Part shown: piece after piece, positions 5,676 through 62,514 of the stretch | Layout of the letters: every line of letters begins with the position of its first letter | How positions within the stretch are numbered: position 1 is the first letter of the stretch | Source of the DNA: an uncultured Candidatus Saccharibacteria bacterium | GTDB lineage: Bacteria; Patescibacteriota; Minisyncoccia; UBA6257; UBA11618 | Assembly: GCA_964362125.1 (NCBI GenBank) | Contig: CAYICS010000004.1 | Location: 1-62,611 of the forward strand | Direction: 5' to 3' | Length of the DNA: 62,611 nucleotides | Notes under the pieces: generated by a model | Told to the model about the DNA's origin: nothing | The model's input: the letters and a program-made list of their open reading frames with translations, nothing else | Database searches by the model: none | Position numbers and translations under genes: made by a program

Positions 5676-6543
5676 AAAATCCCAGTTTTTTCGTCTATTT
5701 TTTTGGATTTTATTATTTGTGATTTTGAATTTGTTTAGAGTTTCGGATTTAGAGTTTAGAGTTTTATCGGCTGAGGCCGCCGGCTTGAGCGGTTATGCTT
5801 GGTCAGAAAATATCGGCTGGGTTAAGTTTAATGGCGCCAACTACGGCGTCATGGCTGATACTGCCACCGGTGAATTGTCCGGTTTTGCTTGGTCAGAAAA
5901 TATCGGCTGGGTCAGGTTCGACCCGCCCGGCCCTTACCCATACAACCCTGCTTACTCCGGCCGCTATGATGTCAGTGACAACAAGTTCAAGGGTTGGGCC
6001 CGGTCTTGTGCCGCCACGGCCGATCCCCGCCACTGCGGTACCGGCAATAATCCCGATGCCGGCGGCTGGGAGGGTTGGCTGAAGCTTTCCGGCAATGGCT
6101 ATAGCGTGGAGCAGGTGGGCAATGCCACTGCCGGCTGTTTTCTTAATGGCTATGCTTGGGGCGGGATGGTGATTGGTTGGCTGAAATTCAGCGGCCAGAA
6201 CTATCAGGTGACAATTAGTGATTGTTTAACCGGCGGCTCAGGGCCGCCGCCGCCGCCCGGCTTGCTTAGTTGCGCTTTCACCGCCTCACCGACAAGAATT
6301 TTATCCGGCAATAGTTCCATTCTTGACTGGAGATGCCAGAACGCCGCCAACTGCTCCATTGCTCCGGGCATTGGTTCTGTCAATAGAGCGGGCGGTTCCC
6401 GTTCGGTCCGGCCTTCGCAAACCACCACCTATACTTTGACTTGCGACGATGGCGACACTCAGACAACAGAGCTTTCTCAAACTATTGCTGTTATCCGCTC
6501 GACCATCTGCGAAGTCATCCCTTGGTTTCCCGGATGCCCTTAG
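5662..6543 (+). CDS. Secreted protein with G(Y/F)AWSENIGW repeats and a C-terminal Ig/PKD-like domain
   Basis: Two SG(Y/F)AWSENIGWV repeats plus GYAWGG and GWEGWLK variants; ATG at 5662 overlaps the upstream stop. Confidence 0.75.
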   Translation: MSIIEKSQFFRLFFWILLFVILNLFRVSDLEFRVLSAEAAGLSGYAWSENIGWVKFNGANYGVMADTATGELSGFAWSENIGWVRFDPPGPYPYNPAYSGRYDVSDNKFKGWARSCAATADPRHCGTGNNPDAGGWEGWLKLSGNGYSVEQVGNATAGCFLNGYAWGGMVIGWLKFSGQNYQVTISDCLTGGSGPPPPPGLLSCAFTASPTRILSGNSSILDWRCQNAANCSIAPGIGSVNRAGGSRSVRPSQTTTYTLTCDDGDTQTTELSQTIAVIRSTICEVIPWFPGCP

Positions 6544-7659: not shown

Positions 7660-7737
7660 ACCCTAAACCCCCCGCCTGCAGACGCCTGGAGCGTCAGCGA
7701 CTGGCGGGCAGGTAAACCCTATACCCTATACCCTAAA
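7660..7737. repeat. (CCCTAAA/CCCTATA)n array interrupted by the 42-bp GC element (7671-7712)
   Basis: ACCCTAAACCC[42 bp]TAAACCCTATACCCTATACCCTAAA; the 42-mer recurs at 35359, 54149 and 55735. Confidence 0.85.
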
Positions 7738-9708: not shown

Positions 9709-9738
9709 ATTATAACCCCCGCCCCCCGCCATTGTCAA
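9709..9738 (-). promoter_or_regulatory. sigma70-type promoter of groESL
   Basis: TTGACA-N18-TATAAT on the minus strand, ending 11 nt before the groS ATG; no CIRCE seen. Confidence 0.75.
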
Positions 9739-9766
9739 ATGTTTGGGGGTGAGACCCCCAAACATT
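9738..9766. repeat. 29-bp hairpin AATGTTTGGGGGT-GAG-ACCCCCAAACATT
   Basis: Perfect 13-bp stem; second, inverted copy at 30872-30898. Confidence 0.8.
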
Positions 9767-23022: not shown

Positions 23023-23146
23023 TAACTTATGGGGGCAAAATCGCTTCTTGCGAAGAAGCGATTTTGATGGGAGCGGTTGATGAAACCGCCCCCGGGATTT
23101 TATATATTGACTTTGAAATTGTAAAGATCTATGGTATACTTTCTAT

Positions 23147-27407: not shown

Positions 27408-27508
27408 GTATCGATGCTAATATACGAATGAATGCGAATGATACGAATAGGAATACGGATTCGCAACCCCATTCGTAGATTCGCAAATTCGTAGATTCGC
27501 ATCGAAGC
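27408..27508. repeat. ~100-bp GTATCGATGC...GCATCGA palindromic element, copy 1
   Basis: ACGAAT/ATTCGT arrays; homologous copies at 42517, 47228, 49982, 51054, 58899. Confidence 0.9.
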
Positions 27509-30868: not shown

Positions 30869-30960
30869 TAGATGTTTGGGGGTTTCACCCCCAAACATTG
30901 GGAATCCCACTTCCTTCTTGCCTTTGATCACGTCTGGAGTATTATTATTAGTTTAATCAT

Positions 30961-42516: not shown

Positions 42517-42601
42517 GTATTGATGCTAATATACGAATTGCGATTCGTAACCCCATTCGTATCATTCGTATATTCGTATATTAGTATATTCGCATCGATA
42601 C
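42517..42601. repeat. GTATCGATGC palindromic element, copy 2
   Basis: GTATTGATGC...GCATCGATAC ends, directly before rplW. Confidence 0.88.
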
Positions 42602-45656: not shown

Positions 45657-45994
45657 CTAGAAGTTCTAAAAAAGGTCCGTATGTTGATGAAAAACTTTTG
45701 AAGAAAGTGGCTAAGTTGAAAGTCGGTCAAATTAAAGAGATTAAAACCTGGTCCCGAGCTTCAGAAATTGCCCCGGAGATGGTTGGTTTTACCATTCACG
45801 TCCATCAAGGGAAAAATTTTGTGCCAGTAGCCATTCGAGAAGAAATGGTTGGTCATCGCTTAGGTGAATTCGCTCCCACCCGCAAGTTCGTTAAGCATGG
45901 AGGAAAGATTCAGCGCGAACAGGAGCAGAAGCGAGCAGAGGCGGAGAAAGCGGCGGCACAAGCGGCTAAGGCCACCGAAAACCCTAAACCCTAA
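45653..45994 (+). CDS. rpsS: 30S ribosomal protein S19 with a C-terminal extension
   Basis: [23 protein letters not shown]; stop supplied by the CCCTAAA array. Confidence 0.98.
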
Positions 45995-46004
45995 ACCCTA
46001 AACG
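45979..46004. repeat. (CCCTAAA)n array, left arm flanking rplV
   Basis: 45983-46004 is the exact reverse complement of 46515-46536. Confidence 0.9.
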
Positions 46005-46006
46005 TT

Positions 46007-46507
46007 ATGTCTACTGCAACAGCCAAACTAAAATATCTAAAAATCGCGCCGCGCAAGGTGCGGTTGCTTGCTAATACCCTTAAAGATTTAACAATCAATG
46101 AGGCTGAGGCTCAGTTGCTGTTGCGGCCGCAGCGTTCGGCGCCGGCGTTGTTGAAACTGCTCCGTTCGGCAATAGCCAATGCTAAACAAAAAAAGTTATC
46201 AGTTAATAAATTAACAGTTACCAGTATTACAGTTGATCAGGGGCCGATGTTGAAAAGATTTTTGCCGCGAGCCATGGGCCGGGCGACGCCTATTCATAAA
46301 AAGACCAGTCATATTACCATTGTTTTAACTGAAGCTAACAAAGAATTACCAACAAGGTTTACGATTTTACCGAAAGAAAAGAAGGTTAAGAAAACAGCTA
46401 AACCTAAAGGGCGCAAGACTGAACCAAAGGCAGAGGCGAAAATCCAGCCTAAAGTCGAAGAAAAACCCGGCTTTTTCCGCCGCATCTTCCGTCGTAAAGC
46501 GATATAG
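46007..46507 (+). CDS. rplV: 50S ribosomal protein L22 with a Lys-rich C-terminal extension
   Basis: IAPRKVR, VDQGP.LKR..PRAMGRA. Confidence 0.98.
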   Translation: MSTATAKLKYLKIAPRKVRLLANTLKDLTINEAEAQLLLRPQRSAPALLKLLRSAIANAKQKKLSVNKLTVTSITVDQGPMLKRFLPRAMGRATPIHKKTSHITIVLTEANKELPTRFTILPKEKKVKKTAKPKGRKTEPKAEAKIQPKVEEKPGFFRRIFRRKAI

Positions 46508-46540
46508 GGTTTAGCGTTTAGGGTTTAGGGTTTAGGATTT
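46505..46540. repeat. (TTTAGGG)n array, right arm flanking rplV
   Basis: 22-bp perfect inverted match to the left arm. Confidence 0.9.
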
Positions 46541-46547
46541 AAAAAAG

Positions 46548-49981: not shown

Positions 49982-50081
49982 GTATCGATACCAATATACT
50001 AATTTACGAATGATACGAATGGGTTACGAATCACAATCGGTATTAGTATAATTAGTATCATTCGTATATTAGCATCGATAC
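49982..50081. repeat. GTATCGATGC palindromic element, copy 4 (inverted)
   Basis: Reverse complement of copy 3 with few mismatches. Confidence 0.9.
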
Positions 50082-51054: not shown

Positions 51055-51159
51055 TATCGATGCTAATATACGAATGAATGCGAATGATGCGAATAAGCTC
51101 ACGAATGATTCGTAAACCCCATTCGTATCATTCGTAAATTCGTAGATTCGCATCGAAGC
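51054..51159. repeat. GTATCGATGC palindromic element, copy 5
   Basis: Begins on the G of the rplF TAG stop. Confidence 0.9.
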
Positions 51160-56159: not shown

Positions 56160-58582
<2,423 letters not shown>

Positions 58583-58892: not shown

Positions 58893-58898
58893 CACTCA

Positions 58899-59003
58899 GT
58901 ATCGATGCTAATATACGAATGAATGCGAATGATACGAATAAGCACACGAATCGATTGGCAACCCTATTCGTAGATTCGCAAATTCGTAGATTCGCATCAA
59001 AGC
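58899..59003. repeat. GTATCGATGC palindromic element, copy 6
   Basis: First 41 nt identical to copy 1; fills the gatC-gatA spacer. Confidence 0.9.
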
Positions 59004-59007
59004 TTAT

Positions 59008-61081: not shown

Positions 61082-61160
61082 TGGCGCGGCCGACCGGATT
61101 TGAACCGGCGATCTTCTCCTTGACAAGGAGACGTGTTTGGCCAGGCTACACCACGGCCGC
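61082..61160 (-). tRNA. tRNA-Asp (GTC), CCA encoded
   Basis: GCGGCCG/CGGCCGC acceptor, TT-GTC-AA loop, GGTTCAAATCC. Confidence 0.96.
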
Positions 61161-61162
61161 AC

Positions 61163-62440
61163 TTATAATAATCTTACCAACTGCTTAAACTTTTGTCCAC
61201 GATCCGCATAGCTCTTGAACATATCAAAACTAGCGGCGCCGGGGGAGAGGATGACGACATCGCCCGACTGAGCCAGTTTTTTAGCCAGGCCCACCGCTTT
61301 TTTTAAATTCGTACTTTCGTATATTCGTACTTTATTCGTAATTCGTAGAGCTTTCTTGATCTTGTTTTTGTTTTCGCCCATCAGGATCAGGGCGCGAATC
61401 CGAGCTCGGGGCAGGGCTTGGGCCCAAATCTTATAATCCAACCCTTTGTCCTTGCCGCCGACAATCAAGACCTTTGGTTCTCTAAAAGCCCGGGCCGCCG
61501 CCACTGTGCCTTCCGGATCGGTGTTGGCAGAGTCGTTGTAATAGCGAACGTCTTTGAGATTTCGCACAAATTCTAATCTATGTTCATTGCCTTTAAATTT
61601 GGAAATTGCTGCCAATGATTTTTTCAATGGGCAGCCCAGATATTTAGCCGCCGCCAGCGCCGCCTGGGCGTTGCGGAAATTGTGTTGCCCGGGTAATTTT
61701 AGCGTTTTACGAAGAAGCGATCGTTCTTTGGCGCTTATATAATGCCAGACAGAAATCTGCCGGCCCGGGCTTTGCTTGGCAATCCGAGCGGAGAGTTTAT
61801 TGTCAGCCAGATAAAAGATTACATCGTTTGCTGTTTGGCGCTGGGCGATTTGGGACTTGGCTTCGAAGTATTCTTTTAAGTTTTTATGATGATCAAGGTG
61901 ATCAGGAAAAACATCCACTACCACAGCCATCTGGGGCGCCCGGTCAATATCCTGAAGCTGGAAACTGGACAACTCCAAAATCACAATTTCGCGTCCTCGG
62001 AGGACGCGAAATTGGGGAAGAAGGTCTAGGGCCGGGGCGCCGATATTGCCGGCTAGATGCGTCCGCCAACCGGATTTTTTCAGAGCTAGATAAAGCAGGG
62101 TGGCAGTCGTGCCTTTGCCCTTGGTGCCGGTGATGCCGATAACCGGGCAGGGACATTTTTGGAAAAATAATCTGGTTAAACTGGTTATATTAGGGTTTAG
62201 GGTATAGGGTTTAGGGTTTAGTAAGCGATAAGGCACTCCGGGCGACCTAAAAATCAGGTCAAATTTTTTCAGGCCGCGCAAATAGTTTTTGCCCAATTGT
62301 TTGTGGACGCCGGCCGGCACCTTCAGCCGAGCATTTTGATCCAACACCCAAATATCCAATCTATTGATGTGAGACATCAATAGATATTGGTAGATGGCGT
62401 TGCCTTCGCGGCCGAATCCAAGAATGGCAATTTTTGACAT
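61163..62440 (-). CDS. murD: UDP-N-acetylmuramoyl-L-alanine--D-glutamate ligase
   Basis: IAILGFGREG, FRSPG, GITGTKGKGT, LELSSFQL, HLDHH, HRLE, YYNDS, LSPGAASF. Confidence 0.97.
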   Translation of the reverse strand: MSKIAILGFGREGNAIYQYLLMSHINRLDIWVLDQNARLKVPAGVHKQLGKNYLRGLKKFDLIFRSPGVPYRLLNPKPYTLNPNITSLTRLFFQKCPCPVIGITGTKGKGTTATLLYLALKKSGWRTHLAGNIGAPALDLLPQFRVLRGREIVILELSSFQLQDIDRAPQMAVVVDVFPDHLDHHKNLKEYFEAKSQIAQRQTANDVIFYLADNKLSARIAKQSPGRQISVWHYISAKERSLLRKTLKLPGQHNFRNAQAALAAAKYLGCPLKKSLAAISKFKGNEHRLEFVRNLKDVRYYNDSANTDPEGTVAAARAFREPKVLIVGGKDKGLDYKIWAQALPRARIRALILMGENKNKIKKALRITNKVRIYESTNLKKAVGLAKKLAQSGDVVILSPGAASFDMFKSYADRGQKFKQLVRLL

Positions 62441-62514
62441 GGTGCCGACGGCAGGGATCGAACCTGCGACCCAGCGCTTATGAAACGCTTGCTCTGCCAC
62501 TGAGCTACGCCGGC
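62440..62514 (-). tRNA. tRNA with a CAT anticodon (elongator Met or Ile2), CCA encoded
   Basis: GCCGGCG/CGTCGGC acceptor (1-72 paired, so not initiator), TT-CAT-AA loop. Confidence 0.93.

What the first reader, a model, noticed from the sequence alone, without database searches (positions are those of the whole stretch)
61304..62385. murD carries four different repeat- or palindrome-derived in-frame segments
Seen inside one essential gene: (a) an ATTCGT array at 61304-61347 (ALRITNKVRIYESTN); (b) a perfect 14-bp stem hairpin CAATTTCGCGTCCT-CGG-AGGACGCGAAATTG at 61984-62014 (PQFRVLRGREI), just before LELSSFQL; (c) a TTTAGGG array at 62190-62221 (LNPKPYTLNPN); (d) a 12-bp stem hairpin ATCTATTGATGT-GAG-ACATCAATAGAT at 62359-62385. 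Segments (a), (c) and (d) resemble families also found between genes here. Established analogy: Rickettsia palindromic elements insert into surface loops. Four families in one gene is striking.
Basis: partly seen in the sequence, partly recalled or inferred. Interest (0 to 1): 0.68.

Follow-up and report, generated by a model that had tools for sequence, protein, structure and literature searches.

The report
Repeat DNA written into murD loops
An essential cell-wall gene (murD) of an ultra-small bacterium has four of its loops encoded by copies of the genome's own short DNA repeats: two hairpins, at least one of the kind handled by a hairpin-cutting transposase, and two tandem-repeat cassettes. 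The protein still looks intact, so this is an unusually dense example of a partly known phenomenon.

Summary
All four patterns are in the sequence at the stated coordinates, in frame, inside an intact murD (window 61166-62440, minus strand, 425 aa). None is a codon coincidence; each belongs to a dispersed family in this 0.62-Mb Patescibacteria genome.

- **(c)** A 30-nt AAACCCT cassette encoding LNPKPYTLNP. It also sits in frame in about 10 other genes here, most of them recognisable housekeeping genes, and in other families of the order.
- **(a)** One arm of a TACGAAT-unit hairpin element that is otherwise mostly intergenic.
- **(b)** A 31-nt perfect palindrome with 10 copies, 9 of them inside ORFs. 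It was found only in this lineage.
- **(d)** A hairpin of the family that flanks two of the genome's three RAYT-like (Y1/HUH) transposase genes, in the arrangement known as a REPtron.

The segments lie at helix-end/loop/strand-start junctions, between conserved residues. Net length change is -1 to +3 aa, so they largely replace loop codons rather than add to them.

The closest orthologue (74% identity) shares a, b and c. Synonymous identity there is raised, and (b) shows a compensatory double change. Orthologues also carry other hairpins at the same loops.

The better analogy is intragenic REPs plus heptamer cassettes, not the long RPE insertions. I rate it a new variant of a known kind.

The parts
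61166..62440 (-). murD coding sequence (425 aa; stop codon at 61163-61165), intact
   Evidence: Translation. Pfam Mur_ligase_M and Mur_ligase_C. PDB MurD hits. AF2 model with mean pLDDT 85.
61304..61347 (-). Segment (a): five TACGAA(T) units, coding residues about 365-378 (LRITNKVRIYESTN). It is a single arm of the TACGAAT-unit hairpin element family.
   Evidence: 26 clusters genome-wide, 23 of them intergenic or at ORF edges; 90% identity over 40 nt to C18:6769-6807 and 91% over 35 nt to C8:17806-17839. No self-fold. It lies in the most variable stretch of MurD (entropy at the 99.5th percentile).
61984..62014 (-). Segment (b): 31-nt perfect palindrome of family F2 (core TCGCKTCCTCnGAGGAMGCGA), coding Q143-V153 (QFRVLRGREIV). 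Net +3 aa compared with orthologues.
   Evidence: 10 copies in the genome, 9 inside ORFs; 7 of 14 pairs covary, none changes on one side only. P0003 keeps a perfect palindrome through a compensatory G>A / C>T pair.: -16.3 kcal/mol.
62192..62221 (-). Segment (c): 30-nt heptamer cassette CTA AAC CCT AAA CCC TAT ACC CTA AAC CCT, coding L74-P83 (LNPKPYTLNP).
   Evidence: 8 exact copies, murD's among them, plus about 3 degenerate in-frame copies in other genes; only 1 of 6 frames is open, and the perfect array is closed in all six; pLDDT for residues 71-80 is 66, the lowest block of the N-terminal domain.
62354..62390 (-). Segment (d): hairpin CCAA(TAT)CTATTGATGT-CTC-ACATCAATAGATTGG. The perfect core is 62359-62385 and codes Y19-L28 (YLLMSHINRL). 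It is a REP-like hairpin of family F3.
   Evidence: The inner stem matches the REP flanking the RAYT gene at C8:3339-4082 except for one compensated pair, and the foot matches the REP flanking the RAYT at C9:5775-6548.
62440..62514 (-). tRNA-Met(CAT). Its 3' CCA shares its last A with the murD ATG.
   Evidence: sequence.
61082..61160 (-). tRNA-Asp(GTC), beginning 3 nt after the murD stop codon.
23036..23066 (.). The only intergenic copy of family F2 (CAAAATCGCTTCTTGCGAAGAAGCGATTTTG).
58914..58996 (.). A complete two-armed element of the (a) family in the gatC-gatA spacer. Sister copies are at 27423-27501, 42544-42594, 50005-50072 and 51069-51152.
   Evidence: It is absent from P0003's contig, where gatC and gatA abut.
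45979..46003 (.). Intergenic AAACCCT array, with the inverted TAGGGTT array at 46505-46541 on the other side of a 166-aa ORF. Same unit as segment (c). A further array lies at 7716-7735.
9738..9766 (.). Intergenic copy of hairpin family F1 (AATGTTTGGGGGT-nnn-ACCCCCAAACATT), the family that flanks the third RAYT gene. A second copy lies at 30872-30898.

Best explanation
murD is an intact UDP-MurNAc-L-Ala:D-Glu ligase gene. Four of its loops, about 10% of its codons, are now encoded by copies of the genome's own short repeat families.

Two segments are REP-type DNA hairpins. (d) belongs to the hairpin superfamily whose members bracket two of the genome's three RAYT-like Y1/HUH tyrosine-transposase genes. 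(b) belongs to a sister family with the same CAAT...ATTG foot. That family has 10 copies, sits almost entirely inside genes, and was found only in this lineage.

The other two are single arms of tandem-unit elements. (c) is a 30-nt AAACCCT cassette, found in frame in about ten other genes. (a) is an arm of the TACGAAT-unit hairpin element.

The copies arrived by DNA-level copying from other loci. For the hairpins the likely route is single-stranded hairpin DNA handled by the RAYT-type enzymes. For the arrays it is template switching or short-patch recombination. Both steps are inferred.

Purifying selection then left only those copies that (i) fall in the one open reading frame, (ii) lie in permissive loops between secondary-structure elements, and (iii) keep loop length nearly constant. 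The result is overwriting rather than insertion.

The hairpins are kept perfect at the DNA level: pairs change only by Watson-Crick compensation. The same MurD loops act as hot spots, because sister lineages carry other hairpins or arrays there.
For: **Shown: family membership**
- The (c) cassette is identical in 8 genes, murD included, and degenerate in about 3 more. Hosts include IleRS, UvrC-like, AsnB, NifS, SecA, TsaD, SOD, KsgA, Alr and a glycosyltransferase.
- (b) is 1 of 10 F2 copies.
- (a) matches intergenic arms at 90% over 40 nt and is one of 26 clusters against 0 in shuffles.
- (d) shares its stem and foot with the hairpins flanking the RAYT genes on C8 and C9.

**Shown: the enzyme**
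- Three Y1_Tnp genes are present. Two exceed the Pfam cut-off, and the only NCBIfam hit for all three is REP-associated tyrosine transposase.
- Each is flanked on both sides by its own hairpin and carries one copy in frame.

**Shown: lineage specificity**
- Orthologues at 68% identity or less lack (a), (b) and (c) and have unrelated peptides.
- F2 is absent from 200 genomes of the order. Among the species representatives of genome contigs it gives only single chance hits.

**Shown: DNA-level maintenance**
- Synonymous codon identity between the window and P0003 is 79% inside the segments and 55% outside (Fisher p = 0.006).
- (b) carries a compensatory pair change.
- In F2, 7 of 14 pairs covary, no pair changes on one side only, and 0 of 500 shuffles reach the observed score.

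**Shown: frame filter**
- The cassette is open in 1 of 6 frames, and the perfect array in none.

**Shown: permissive sites**
- All four segments lie at helix-end/loop/strand-start junctions, with pLDDT dips at (b), (c) and (d).
- No invariant column of the alignment lies inside any of them.
- Entropy percentiles are 99.5 for (a), 88 for (d) and 78 for (c).

**Shown: hot loops**
- P0003 and P0004 have a different perfect palindrome at site (d).
- P0003 has a 69-nt hairpin inserted in frame inside cassette (c).
- P0004 has an 18-codon insert with an imperfect hairpin at site (a).
Against: - No mobilisation event was observed.
- No RAYT gene flanked by F2 hairpins was found, so the enzyme link for (b) rests on similar architecture only.
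- The RAYT-like proteins are distant from characterised RAYTs: 23-36 bits against an NCBIfam cut-off of 80.
- Near length-neutrality is not what IS200/IS605-type insertion produces, so the integration chemistry is unexplained.
- In several cases one arm coincides with native, conserved codons: YVRKS in P0003 murD, NLL in MurG. That fits local fold-back copying as well as import.
- Segment (b) partly overlaps moderately conserved residues (entropy at the 39th percentile).
- No enzyme is known for the heptamer arrays.
Confidence: 0.7

Rival explanations
1. In-situ origin without transfer between loci. The palindromes arise where they stand, by intrastrand template switching (quasi-palindrome correction or inverted duplication of native codons). 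The arrays arise by local slippage. The families would then reflect similar seeds.
For: - At site (d) in P0003 and P0004 the left arm encodes the family-consensus YVRKS. The right arm overwrites the native PxYKKAE, leaving the stretch one residue shorter.
- In MurG the left arm of the F3 copy is the nearly invariant NLL codons. The F2 copy adds +6 aa, about one arm, next to native-like AKESFGF.
- Covariation is strictly Watson-Crick.
- NifS relatives have a native SLNP/LxP where the cassette ends.
Against: - Identical sequences of 21-31 nt occur at 5-10 unlinked loci.
- The identical 30-nt cassette occurs in 8 genes here and in other families of the order.
- Slippage by one 7-nt unit would shift the frame of an essential gene.
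- The hairpin families are tied to cognate RAYT genes.
Confidence: 0.14
2. Selected nucleic-acid signals. On this reading the hairpins and arrays are functional sites that evolve in place under a drive or under selection. They could be binding sites of dimeric proteins, mRNA structures, or uptake-sequence-like motifs. Coding regions would simply accommodate them.
For: - Synonymous conservation is raised inside the segments.
- Hairpin changes are compensatory.
- Three lineages each have a different palindrome at the same murD codons.
- The segments are near length-neutral, use one frame, and avoid conserved residues. Findlay and Redfield describe the same for uptake sequences in coding regions (PMC2817400).
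- Each RAYT gene keeps its own hairpin in frame.
Against: - There are many unrelated families of only 7-26 copies, rather than one motif at hundreds of copies.
- Distribution among close relatives is patchy. The cassette was found in 13 of 201 genomes of the order, this one included, and F2 in none of the other 200.
- Copies do not sit at regulatory positions.
- The absence of G-T intermediates argues against a purely RNA-level structure.
Confidence: 0.12
3. Chance or peptide-level convergence. On this reading the DNA patterns follow from codon usage for peptides that MurD needs, or LNPKPYTLNP is a selected peptide motif.
For: The peptide LNPKPYTLNP recurs in many proteins.
Against: - Codon choice is identical in all copies.
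- Orthologues have unrelated peptides.
- 0.3 hairpins and 0 clusters are expected by chance.
- The cassette lands in unrelated structural contexts: a pilin leader, the SecA tail, TIM and SOD.
Confidence: 0.02

Closest known systems
Intragenic REPs of REP/RAYT systems (Di Nocera et al. 2013, PMC3733652; REP/RAYT and REPINs: Bertels & Rainey 2011, PMC3116915)
   Same: Both are short (20-40 nt) palindromes in several families per genome. In both, tyrosine-transposase genes are flanked by their cognate hairpins (REPtrons). In both, some copies lie wholly inside ORFs and are translated, including in tRNA synthetase and uvr genes.
   Different: - This is a Patescibacteria genome of 0.62 Mb.
- The hairpins have a CAAT...ATTG foot and no GTAG or CGTC tag.
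- Each family has only about 10 copies.
- One family (F2) is almost wholly intragenic.
- Net length change is close to zero.
- The RAYT-like proteins are long (about 245 aa), distant from characterised RAYTs, and in this genome each carries its own hairpin in frame.
Rickettsia palindromic elements (RPE; Ogata et al. 2000, from my own knowledge; summarised in PMC3733652)
   Same: Both are palindromic repeats found in frame in genes that are likely functional, presumably tolerated at the protein surface.
   Different: RPE-1 is about 100-150 bp and adds tens of residues. Here the segments are 27-45 nt and change length by -1 to +3 aa. The sequence families, the tags and the phylum all differ.
Heptameric tandem repeats (STRR) and small dispersed repeats SDR1-8 of Nostoc (Elhai et al. 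2008, Genome Res 18:1484; cited from PMC3116915 ref. 43; the paper is not held, so details are from my own knowledge)
   Same: Both genomes are rich in 7-nt tandem arrays. In both, very small (tens of nt) hairpin elements are embedded in those arrays. Here the example is the 69-nt hairpin inside cassette (c) in P0003.
   Different: Those elements are cyanobacterial and essentially non-coding. Here the heptamer cassette is translated in essential genes, with a fixed frame and a fixed stop-removing variant unit.
DNA uptake sequences in coding regions (Findlay & Redfield 2009, PMC2817400)
   Same: Both are DNA-level motifs inside genes with no length change. Both show frame bias and a preference for poorly conserved positions.
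   Different: Uptake sequences are one 9-12-nt motif at hundreds to thousands of copies, tied to competence. Here there are many families of 27-45 nt with 26 copies or fewer, and no evidence of uptake bias.
In-frame MITEs of Coxiella (PMC5896051) and palindromic amphipathic repeat coding elements of Mollicutes (PMC2996958)
   Same: Both are repeat DNA translated as part of proteins. I know these two papers from their titles and abstracts only.
   Different: Those elements are longer, contribute net insertions or whole repeat domains, and have no RAYT association.

Membership tests
MurD (UDP-N-acetylmuramoylalanine--D-glutamate ligase) | Mur ligase middle and C-terminal domains, full-length similarity to solved MurD structures, and conserved P-loop GTKGKGT | tested here: met
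   Pfam PF08245 and PF02875. PDB MurD chains at E = 6e-56 to 8e-41. The residues invariant across the alignment are present.
REP/RAYT (REPtron) | Short palindromic repeats (20-40 nt) in multiple dispersed copies | tested here: met
   Copy numbers are about 13 for F1, 10 for F2 and about 13 for F3, each 27-35 nt long.
REP/RAYT (REPtron) | A Y1/HUH tyrosine-transposase gene flanked by the cognate palindromes | tested here: met
   The genes at C9:5775-6548, C8:3339-4082 and C3:41101-41841 are each flanked on both sides. This holds for families F3b, F3c and F1. murD (d) is an F3 variant. No such gene was found for F2, the family of murD (b).
REP/RAYT (REPtron) | Transposase scores as a RAYT by curated models | tested here: inconclusive
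   Pfam Y1_Tnp scores 36.4 and 33.2 bits, above the cut-off of 23, and 21.9 bits, below it. NCBIfam REP_Tyr_transpos is the only hit for all three, but at 23-36 bits against a cut-off of 80.
REP/RAYT (REPtron) | GTAG or CGTC tetranucleotide at one end of the repeat (PMC3733652) | tested here: not met
   The hairpin feet read CAAT...ATTG or CCAA...TTGG. GTAG occurs only inside the arms of the (a) family.
REP/RAYT (REPtron) | Predominantly extragenic location | tested here: not met
   F2 has 9 of 10 copies inside ORFs. F1 has about 6 of 13 and F3 about 5 of 13. Intragenic REPs are nevertheless documented.
Rickettsia palindromic elements (RPE) | Palindromic element of about 100-150 bp that adds tens of residues in frame | tested here: not met
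   The segments are 27-45 nt, with net change of -1, 0, +3 and 0 aa.
Rickettsia palindromic elements (RPE) | In frame within genes that remain functional, at permissive or surface positions | tested here: met
   The ORF is intact and the model is confident. The segments lie at loop junctions that contain no invariant residue. True solvent exposure was not computed.
MITE | 70-300 bp, terminal inverted repeats and target-site duplication | tested here: not met
   The segments are too short. Inspection of the flanks of the cassette and F2 copies shows no direct repeats.
Heptanucleotide simple-sequence repeats (STRR-like) | Tandem 7-nt units, many arrays per genome | tested here: met
   There are 184 period-7 arrays, 24 of them with the AAACCCT unit. 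Segment (c) has 4.6 units.
DNA uptake signal sequences | A single short motif at hundreds to thousands of copies per genome, with biased uptake | tested here: not met
   There are many families of 26 copies or fewer. Uptake bias cannot be tested with these tools.

The most novel reading that the evidence does not exclude
Patescibacteria of this order may run an active DNA-level process that overwrites short cassettes. Hairpins handled by RAYT-type HUH enzymes, and heptamer-array cassettes copied by template switching, would repeatedly rewrite the same permissive loops of essential proteins while keeping length and frame. On this reading, loop sequence in proteins such as MurD, MurG, IleRS, NifS, TIM and KsgA is set by selfish or structural DNA rather than by protein-level evolution. 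The in-frame copy inside each RAYT gene would then be a working part of the system.
Probability: 0.25. Interest if true: 0.8.

Novelty: new variant of a known kind. Interest (0 to 1): 0.6.

Why it matters
Even in a 0.62-Mb, highly reduced genome, about one ORF in six, essential peptidoglycan and translation genes included, carries short repeat DNA in frame. In murD about a tenth of the protein is specified by such repeats.

If the mechanism is confirmed, REP/RAYT biology extends to the candidate phyla radiation and to coding sequence.

The finding also adds a translated heptamer cassette with a fixed stop-removing variant unit, something the searches of the held library made here did not turn up.

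There are practical consequences too. Loop divergence in these proteins should not be read as protein-level adaptation, and alignments or phylogenies of CPR housekeeping genes should mask these cassettes.

Finally, it yields concrete substrates, the hairpins (b) and (d), for testing what RAYT-type enzymes actually do.

Tried and rejected
- **Rfam.** The murD region gave only the two tRNAs.
- **Scan of the GTDB species representatives for the F2 core.** It returned 8 single, unrelated hits in large genomes, which is chance level. No external F2-flanked RAYT was found.
- **BLAST of P0003/P0004-specific elements against this genome.** The d' palindrome, the 69-nt insert, the P0004 insert and canonical parS gave nothing useful. 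d' does resemble the REP flanking a RAYT in G017.
- **Elhai 2008.** The paper could not be read because it is not held.
- **Phase variation by 7-nt slippage.** Considered and rejected, because it would be lethal in essential genes.
- **Assembly artefact.** Rejected, because the same elements occur in an independent assembly (P0003).
- **Telomere-like function for TTTAGGG.** Rejected, because it is one heptamer unit among dozens.
- **Four elements as a murD-specific property.** Rejected as a strong claim: IleRS has five elements and 0.6 genes with four or more are expected.
Full report
**1. What is there**

The region 61166-62440 (minus strand) is an intact 425-aa MurD.
- It has the Pfam Mur ligase middle and C-terminal domains.
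- It matches solved MurD structures down to E = 6e-56.
- Its AlphaFold2 model is confident (mean pLDDT 85).
- It lies between tRNA-Met and tRNA-Asp on the same strand.
- The host genome is 0.62 Mb in 24 contigs. Named homologues are Patescibacteria or Liptonbacteria.

- Palindrome (b) folds as single-stranded DNA at -16.3 kcal/mol (z = -8.4).
- Palindrome (d) folds at -11.3 kcal/mol (z = -5.75).
- (a) and (c) have no self-structure.

**2. More than chance, and part of a genome-wide load**

- The genome holds 106 perfect hairpins with stems of 12 bp or more, against about 0.3 in shuffles.
- It holds 555 tandem arrays, 184 of them with period 7.
- By a crude ORF map, 106 of 630 ORFs carry at least one element well inside them.
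- murD has four, the second highest count after IleRS with five.
- The Poisson P for murD is about 8e-4. About 0.6 genes with four or more are expected and three are observed.
- murD is therefore the upper tail of a general phenomenon.

**3. Each segment belongs to a family**

*Segment (c).* It is a discrete 30-nt cassette, CTA AAC CCT AAA CCC TAY ACC CTA AAC CCT, encoding LNPKPYTLNP.
- Eight exact copies, murD's among them, plus about three degenerate copies sit in frame in genes.
- Besides murD the hosts include IleRS, a UvrC-like gene, AsnB, NifS, SecA, TsaD, SOD, KsgA, alanine racemase and a glycosyltransferase (Pfam for several hosts).
- A perfect AAACCCT array is closed in all six frames.
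- The cassette differs from it by the single TAA>TAY change and is open in exactly one frame. That explains why every copy has the same frame and orientation.
- The same cassette, with TAY or TCT at that codon, sits in frame in other families of the order.
- In G127 it is in pilin leaders, an IleRS-like gene, TatD, NifS, TIM (twice) and KsgA, the last at the same site as here.
- In G131 and G187 it is in TIM at one shared site.
- In G069 it is in KsgA, at a site where this genome has an ACCTACA array instead.
- It is absent from the ten same-family genomes in that sample.

*Segment (a).* It is one arm of a two-armed element of about 100 nt built of TACGAAT/ATTCGTA units.
- There are 26 clusters against 0 in shuffles, and 23 of them are intergenic or at ORF edges.
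- The best matches are 90% over 40 nt and 91% over 35 nt to intergenic copies.

*Segment (b).* It belongs to family F2, with core TCGCKTCCTCnGAGGAMGCGA.
- There are 10 copies, 9 of them inside ORFs: IleRS, AsnB, Fmt, TatD, MurG, a glycosyltransferase, an FAD oxidase, a hypothetical protein and murD.
- Seven copies are read as (K/I)(F/I)ASSEEA and two as Q(F/I)R....
- F2 is absent from 200 other genomes of the order.
- Among the species representatives of genome contigs the core gives only single chance hits.

*Segment (d).* It belongs to the CTATTG...CAATAG superfamily F3.

**4. The hairpins have an enzyme**

A search of the genome with Pfam Y1_Tnp found three genes: C9:5775-6548, C8:3339-4082 and C3:41101-41841.
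- They carry the HUH motif (MPNHFHLL) and a conserved tyrosine region (YYIHLNP).
- Their only NCBIfam hit is REP-associated tyrosine transposase, well below its cut-off.
- Each gene is bracketed on both sides by its own perfect hairpin family: F3b, F3c and F1 respectively.
- Each also carries one copy of that hairpin in frame at the same protein position, just N-terminal of the HUH motif.
- Homologues in relatives are patchy, present in 5 of 30 genomes. Most are flanked by or overlap private palindromes of their own.

murD (d) links to these genes in two ways.
- Its inner stem matches the C8 hairpin except for one compensated pair.
- Its foot matches the C9 hairpin.
- The different palindrome that P0003 and P0004 carry at the same murD codons resembles the hairpin flanking a RAYT in G017.

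The palindromic half of the finding is therefore a REP/RAYT system whose REPs enter coding sequence. Di Nocera et al. documented that elsewhere (PMC3733652). My searches of the held library found no paper linking RAYTs to Patescibacteria.

**5. Orthologue comparison**

I aligned codons with P0003 (74% identity), P0004 (68%), P0005 (58%), G001 (56%) and more distant relatives. The table gives the result site by site.

| Site | This murD | Closest orthologues | More distant orthologues |
|---|---|---|---|
| (b) | 31-nt palindrome, +3 aa | P0003 has it, still perfect, with a compensatory G>A / C>T pair (one Arg>His, one silent) | Lack it, including the 9 extra nt |
| (c) | Cassette | P0003 has it, split by a 69-nt in-frame hairpin (18-bp stem) | Unrelated peptide of nearly the same length (95% have one more residue) |
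| (a) | TACGAAT arm | P0003 nearly identical; P0004 instead has an 18-codon insert with an imperfect hairpin | Unrelated |
| (d) | F3 hairpin | P0003 and P0004 have another perfect 13-bp palindrome; P0005 has CCGGAATTCCGG | Unrelated |

- Net length change against the majority of 120 homologues is -1 for (d), -1 to 0 for (c), +3 for (b) and 0 for (a).
- The segments are thus mostly replacements.
- Elsewhere the balance varies. In MurG the F2 copy adds 6 aa and the F3 copy adds 0. In NifS the cassette adds about 4 aa. In the RAYT genes the hairpin adds about 5-7 aa.

**6. DNA-level maintenance**

- Between the window and P0003, codons for identical residues are identical in 79% of cases inside the segments and 55% outside (Fisher p = 0.006). 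This holds although the segments lie in the most variable parts of the protein.
- Across 11 F2 copies, 7 of 14 stem pairs show changes on both sides, none changes on one side only, and 0 of 500 shuffles reach the observed covariation.
- The lack of G-T intermediates points to DNA palindromy rather than RNA pairing. Candidate causes are single-stranded DNA hairpins, a symmetric binding site, or arm-to-arm copying.

**7. Position in the protein**

- (d) covers the end of helix 11-22 and the loop before strand 28-34.
- (c) covers the coil 75-84, where pLDDT (66) is the lowest in the N-terminal domain.
- (b) covers the coil 144-150 between helix 137-143 and strand 151-156.
- (a) covers the coil-strand-coil stretch between helices 358-365 and 379-389.
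- No invariant column of the alignment falls inside a segment, and conserved residues bracket each one.
- I did not compute solvent exposure.

**8. Mechanism**

Shown:
- family membership;
- linkage of the hairpin families to RAYT genes;
- lineage specificity;
- the frame filter;
- DNA-level conservation;
- recurrent use of the same loops.

Inferred:
- that the RAYT-like enzymes move or rewrite the hairpins;
- that the arrays spread by template switching or short-patch recombination;
- that selection on frame and loop length produces the appearance of overwriting.

A contribution from local fold-back copying is likely. In several cases one arm is the native conserved sequence and the other is its reverse complement. 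It cannot, however, explain identical elements of 21-31 nt at unlinked loci.

**9. Verdict**

This is a dense example of intragenic REP-type hairpins plus translated heptamer cassettes in a CPR genome, and I rate it a new variant of a known kind.

Earlier notes of this scan describe heptamer arrays in this genome and RAYT genes carrying their own hairpins in other Patescibacteria. I treated these as leads only and re-derived the points used here from this genome's sequence.

Noticed in passing
window 62438-62514: The last A of the tRNA-Met 3' CCA is the A of the murD ATG (...GGCACCATGTCA...). There is no room for a leader or a Shine-Dalgarno sequence, which suggests a leaderless murD mRNA released by tRNA processing. 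P0004's contig has the same tRNA-murD abutment. In P0003's contig the tRNA-Met is inverted relative to murD.
   Followed up: partly
genome contigs C9:5775-6548, C8:3339-4082, C3:41101-41841 (outside the window): There are three RAYT-like Y1/HUH genes. Each is flanked by its own hairpin family and carries one in-frame copy at the same position, just before the HUH motif. Homologues in G017, G026, G011 and G030 show no perfect hairpin (stem of 9 bp or more) at that position.
   Followed up: partly
window 58893-59007 compared with L021:4172: The gatC-gatA spacer holds a complete two-armed TACGAAT-unit hairpin element. In P0003's syntenic contig gatC and gatA abut with no spacer. P0003 instead has a 225-nt GC-rich structured spacer between ligA and gatC, where the window has 4 nt.
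   Followed up: partly
L021:1106-1177 (P0003 murD): A 69-nt in-frame hairpin (CCCAGTAACATTACTTCG...CGAAGTAATGTTACTGGG) is inserted inside the AAACCCT cassette, flanked by TAC and TAT. It adds 23 aa to the same MurD loop.
   Followed up: partly
genome contig C1:78624-81482 (IleRS): IleRS carries at least five elements: an F2 hairpin (KIASSQEAI), the AAACCCT cassette, a TACGAAT arm (ANLRMNANDTNSNAN), and AATTTCC and AAAAATT arrays.
   Followed up: no
genome contig C1:25245-25991 (KsgA) compared with L039 and L045: One KsgA site carries the AAACCCT cassette both here and in G127. A second KsgA site carries an ACCTACA array here but the AAACCCT cassette in G069. The same loop thus holds different heptamer units in different lineages.
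   Followed up: partly
genome contig C3:14413-15693 (NifS/IscS-like): This genome and G009 share an insertion of about 40 aa (VLRNQNTFAPAAKVSS...) that other relatives lack. At the cassette site G009 and G017 have 14-aa stretches that look like decayed cassettes (KLPTNHYPLSTFVF and SLNSKFCILNSILT).
   Followed up: no
window 58138-58167 and 58343-58361 (ligA); L021:4925-4955 and 6193-6225: ligA carries in-frame heptamer arrays in both species, but with different units (AATTACC and AAAATGG here, TTTTCGC and AATTTCC in P0003). One pair lies at roughly corresponding positions near the C-terminal linker.
   Followed up: no
window 45979-46541: A 166-aa ORF (46007-46507) is framed by an AAACCCT array upstream and the inverted TAGGGTT array downstream.
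   Followed up: no
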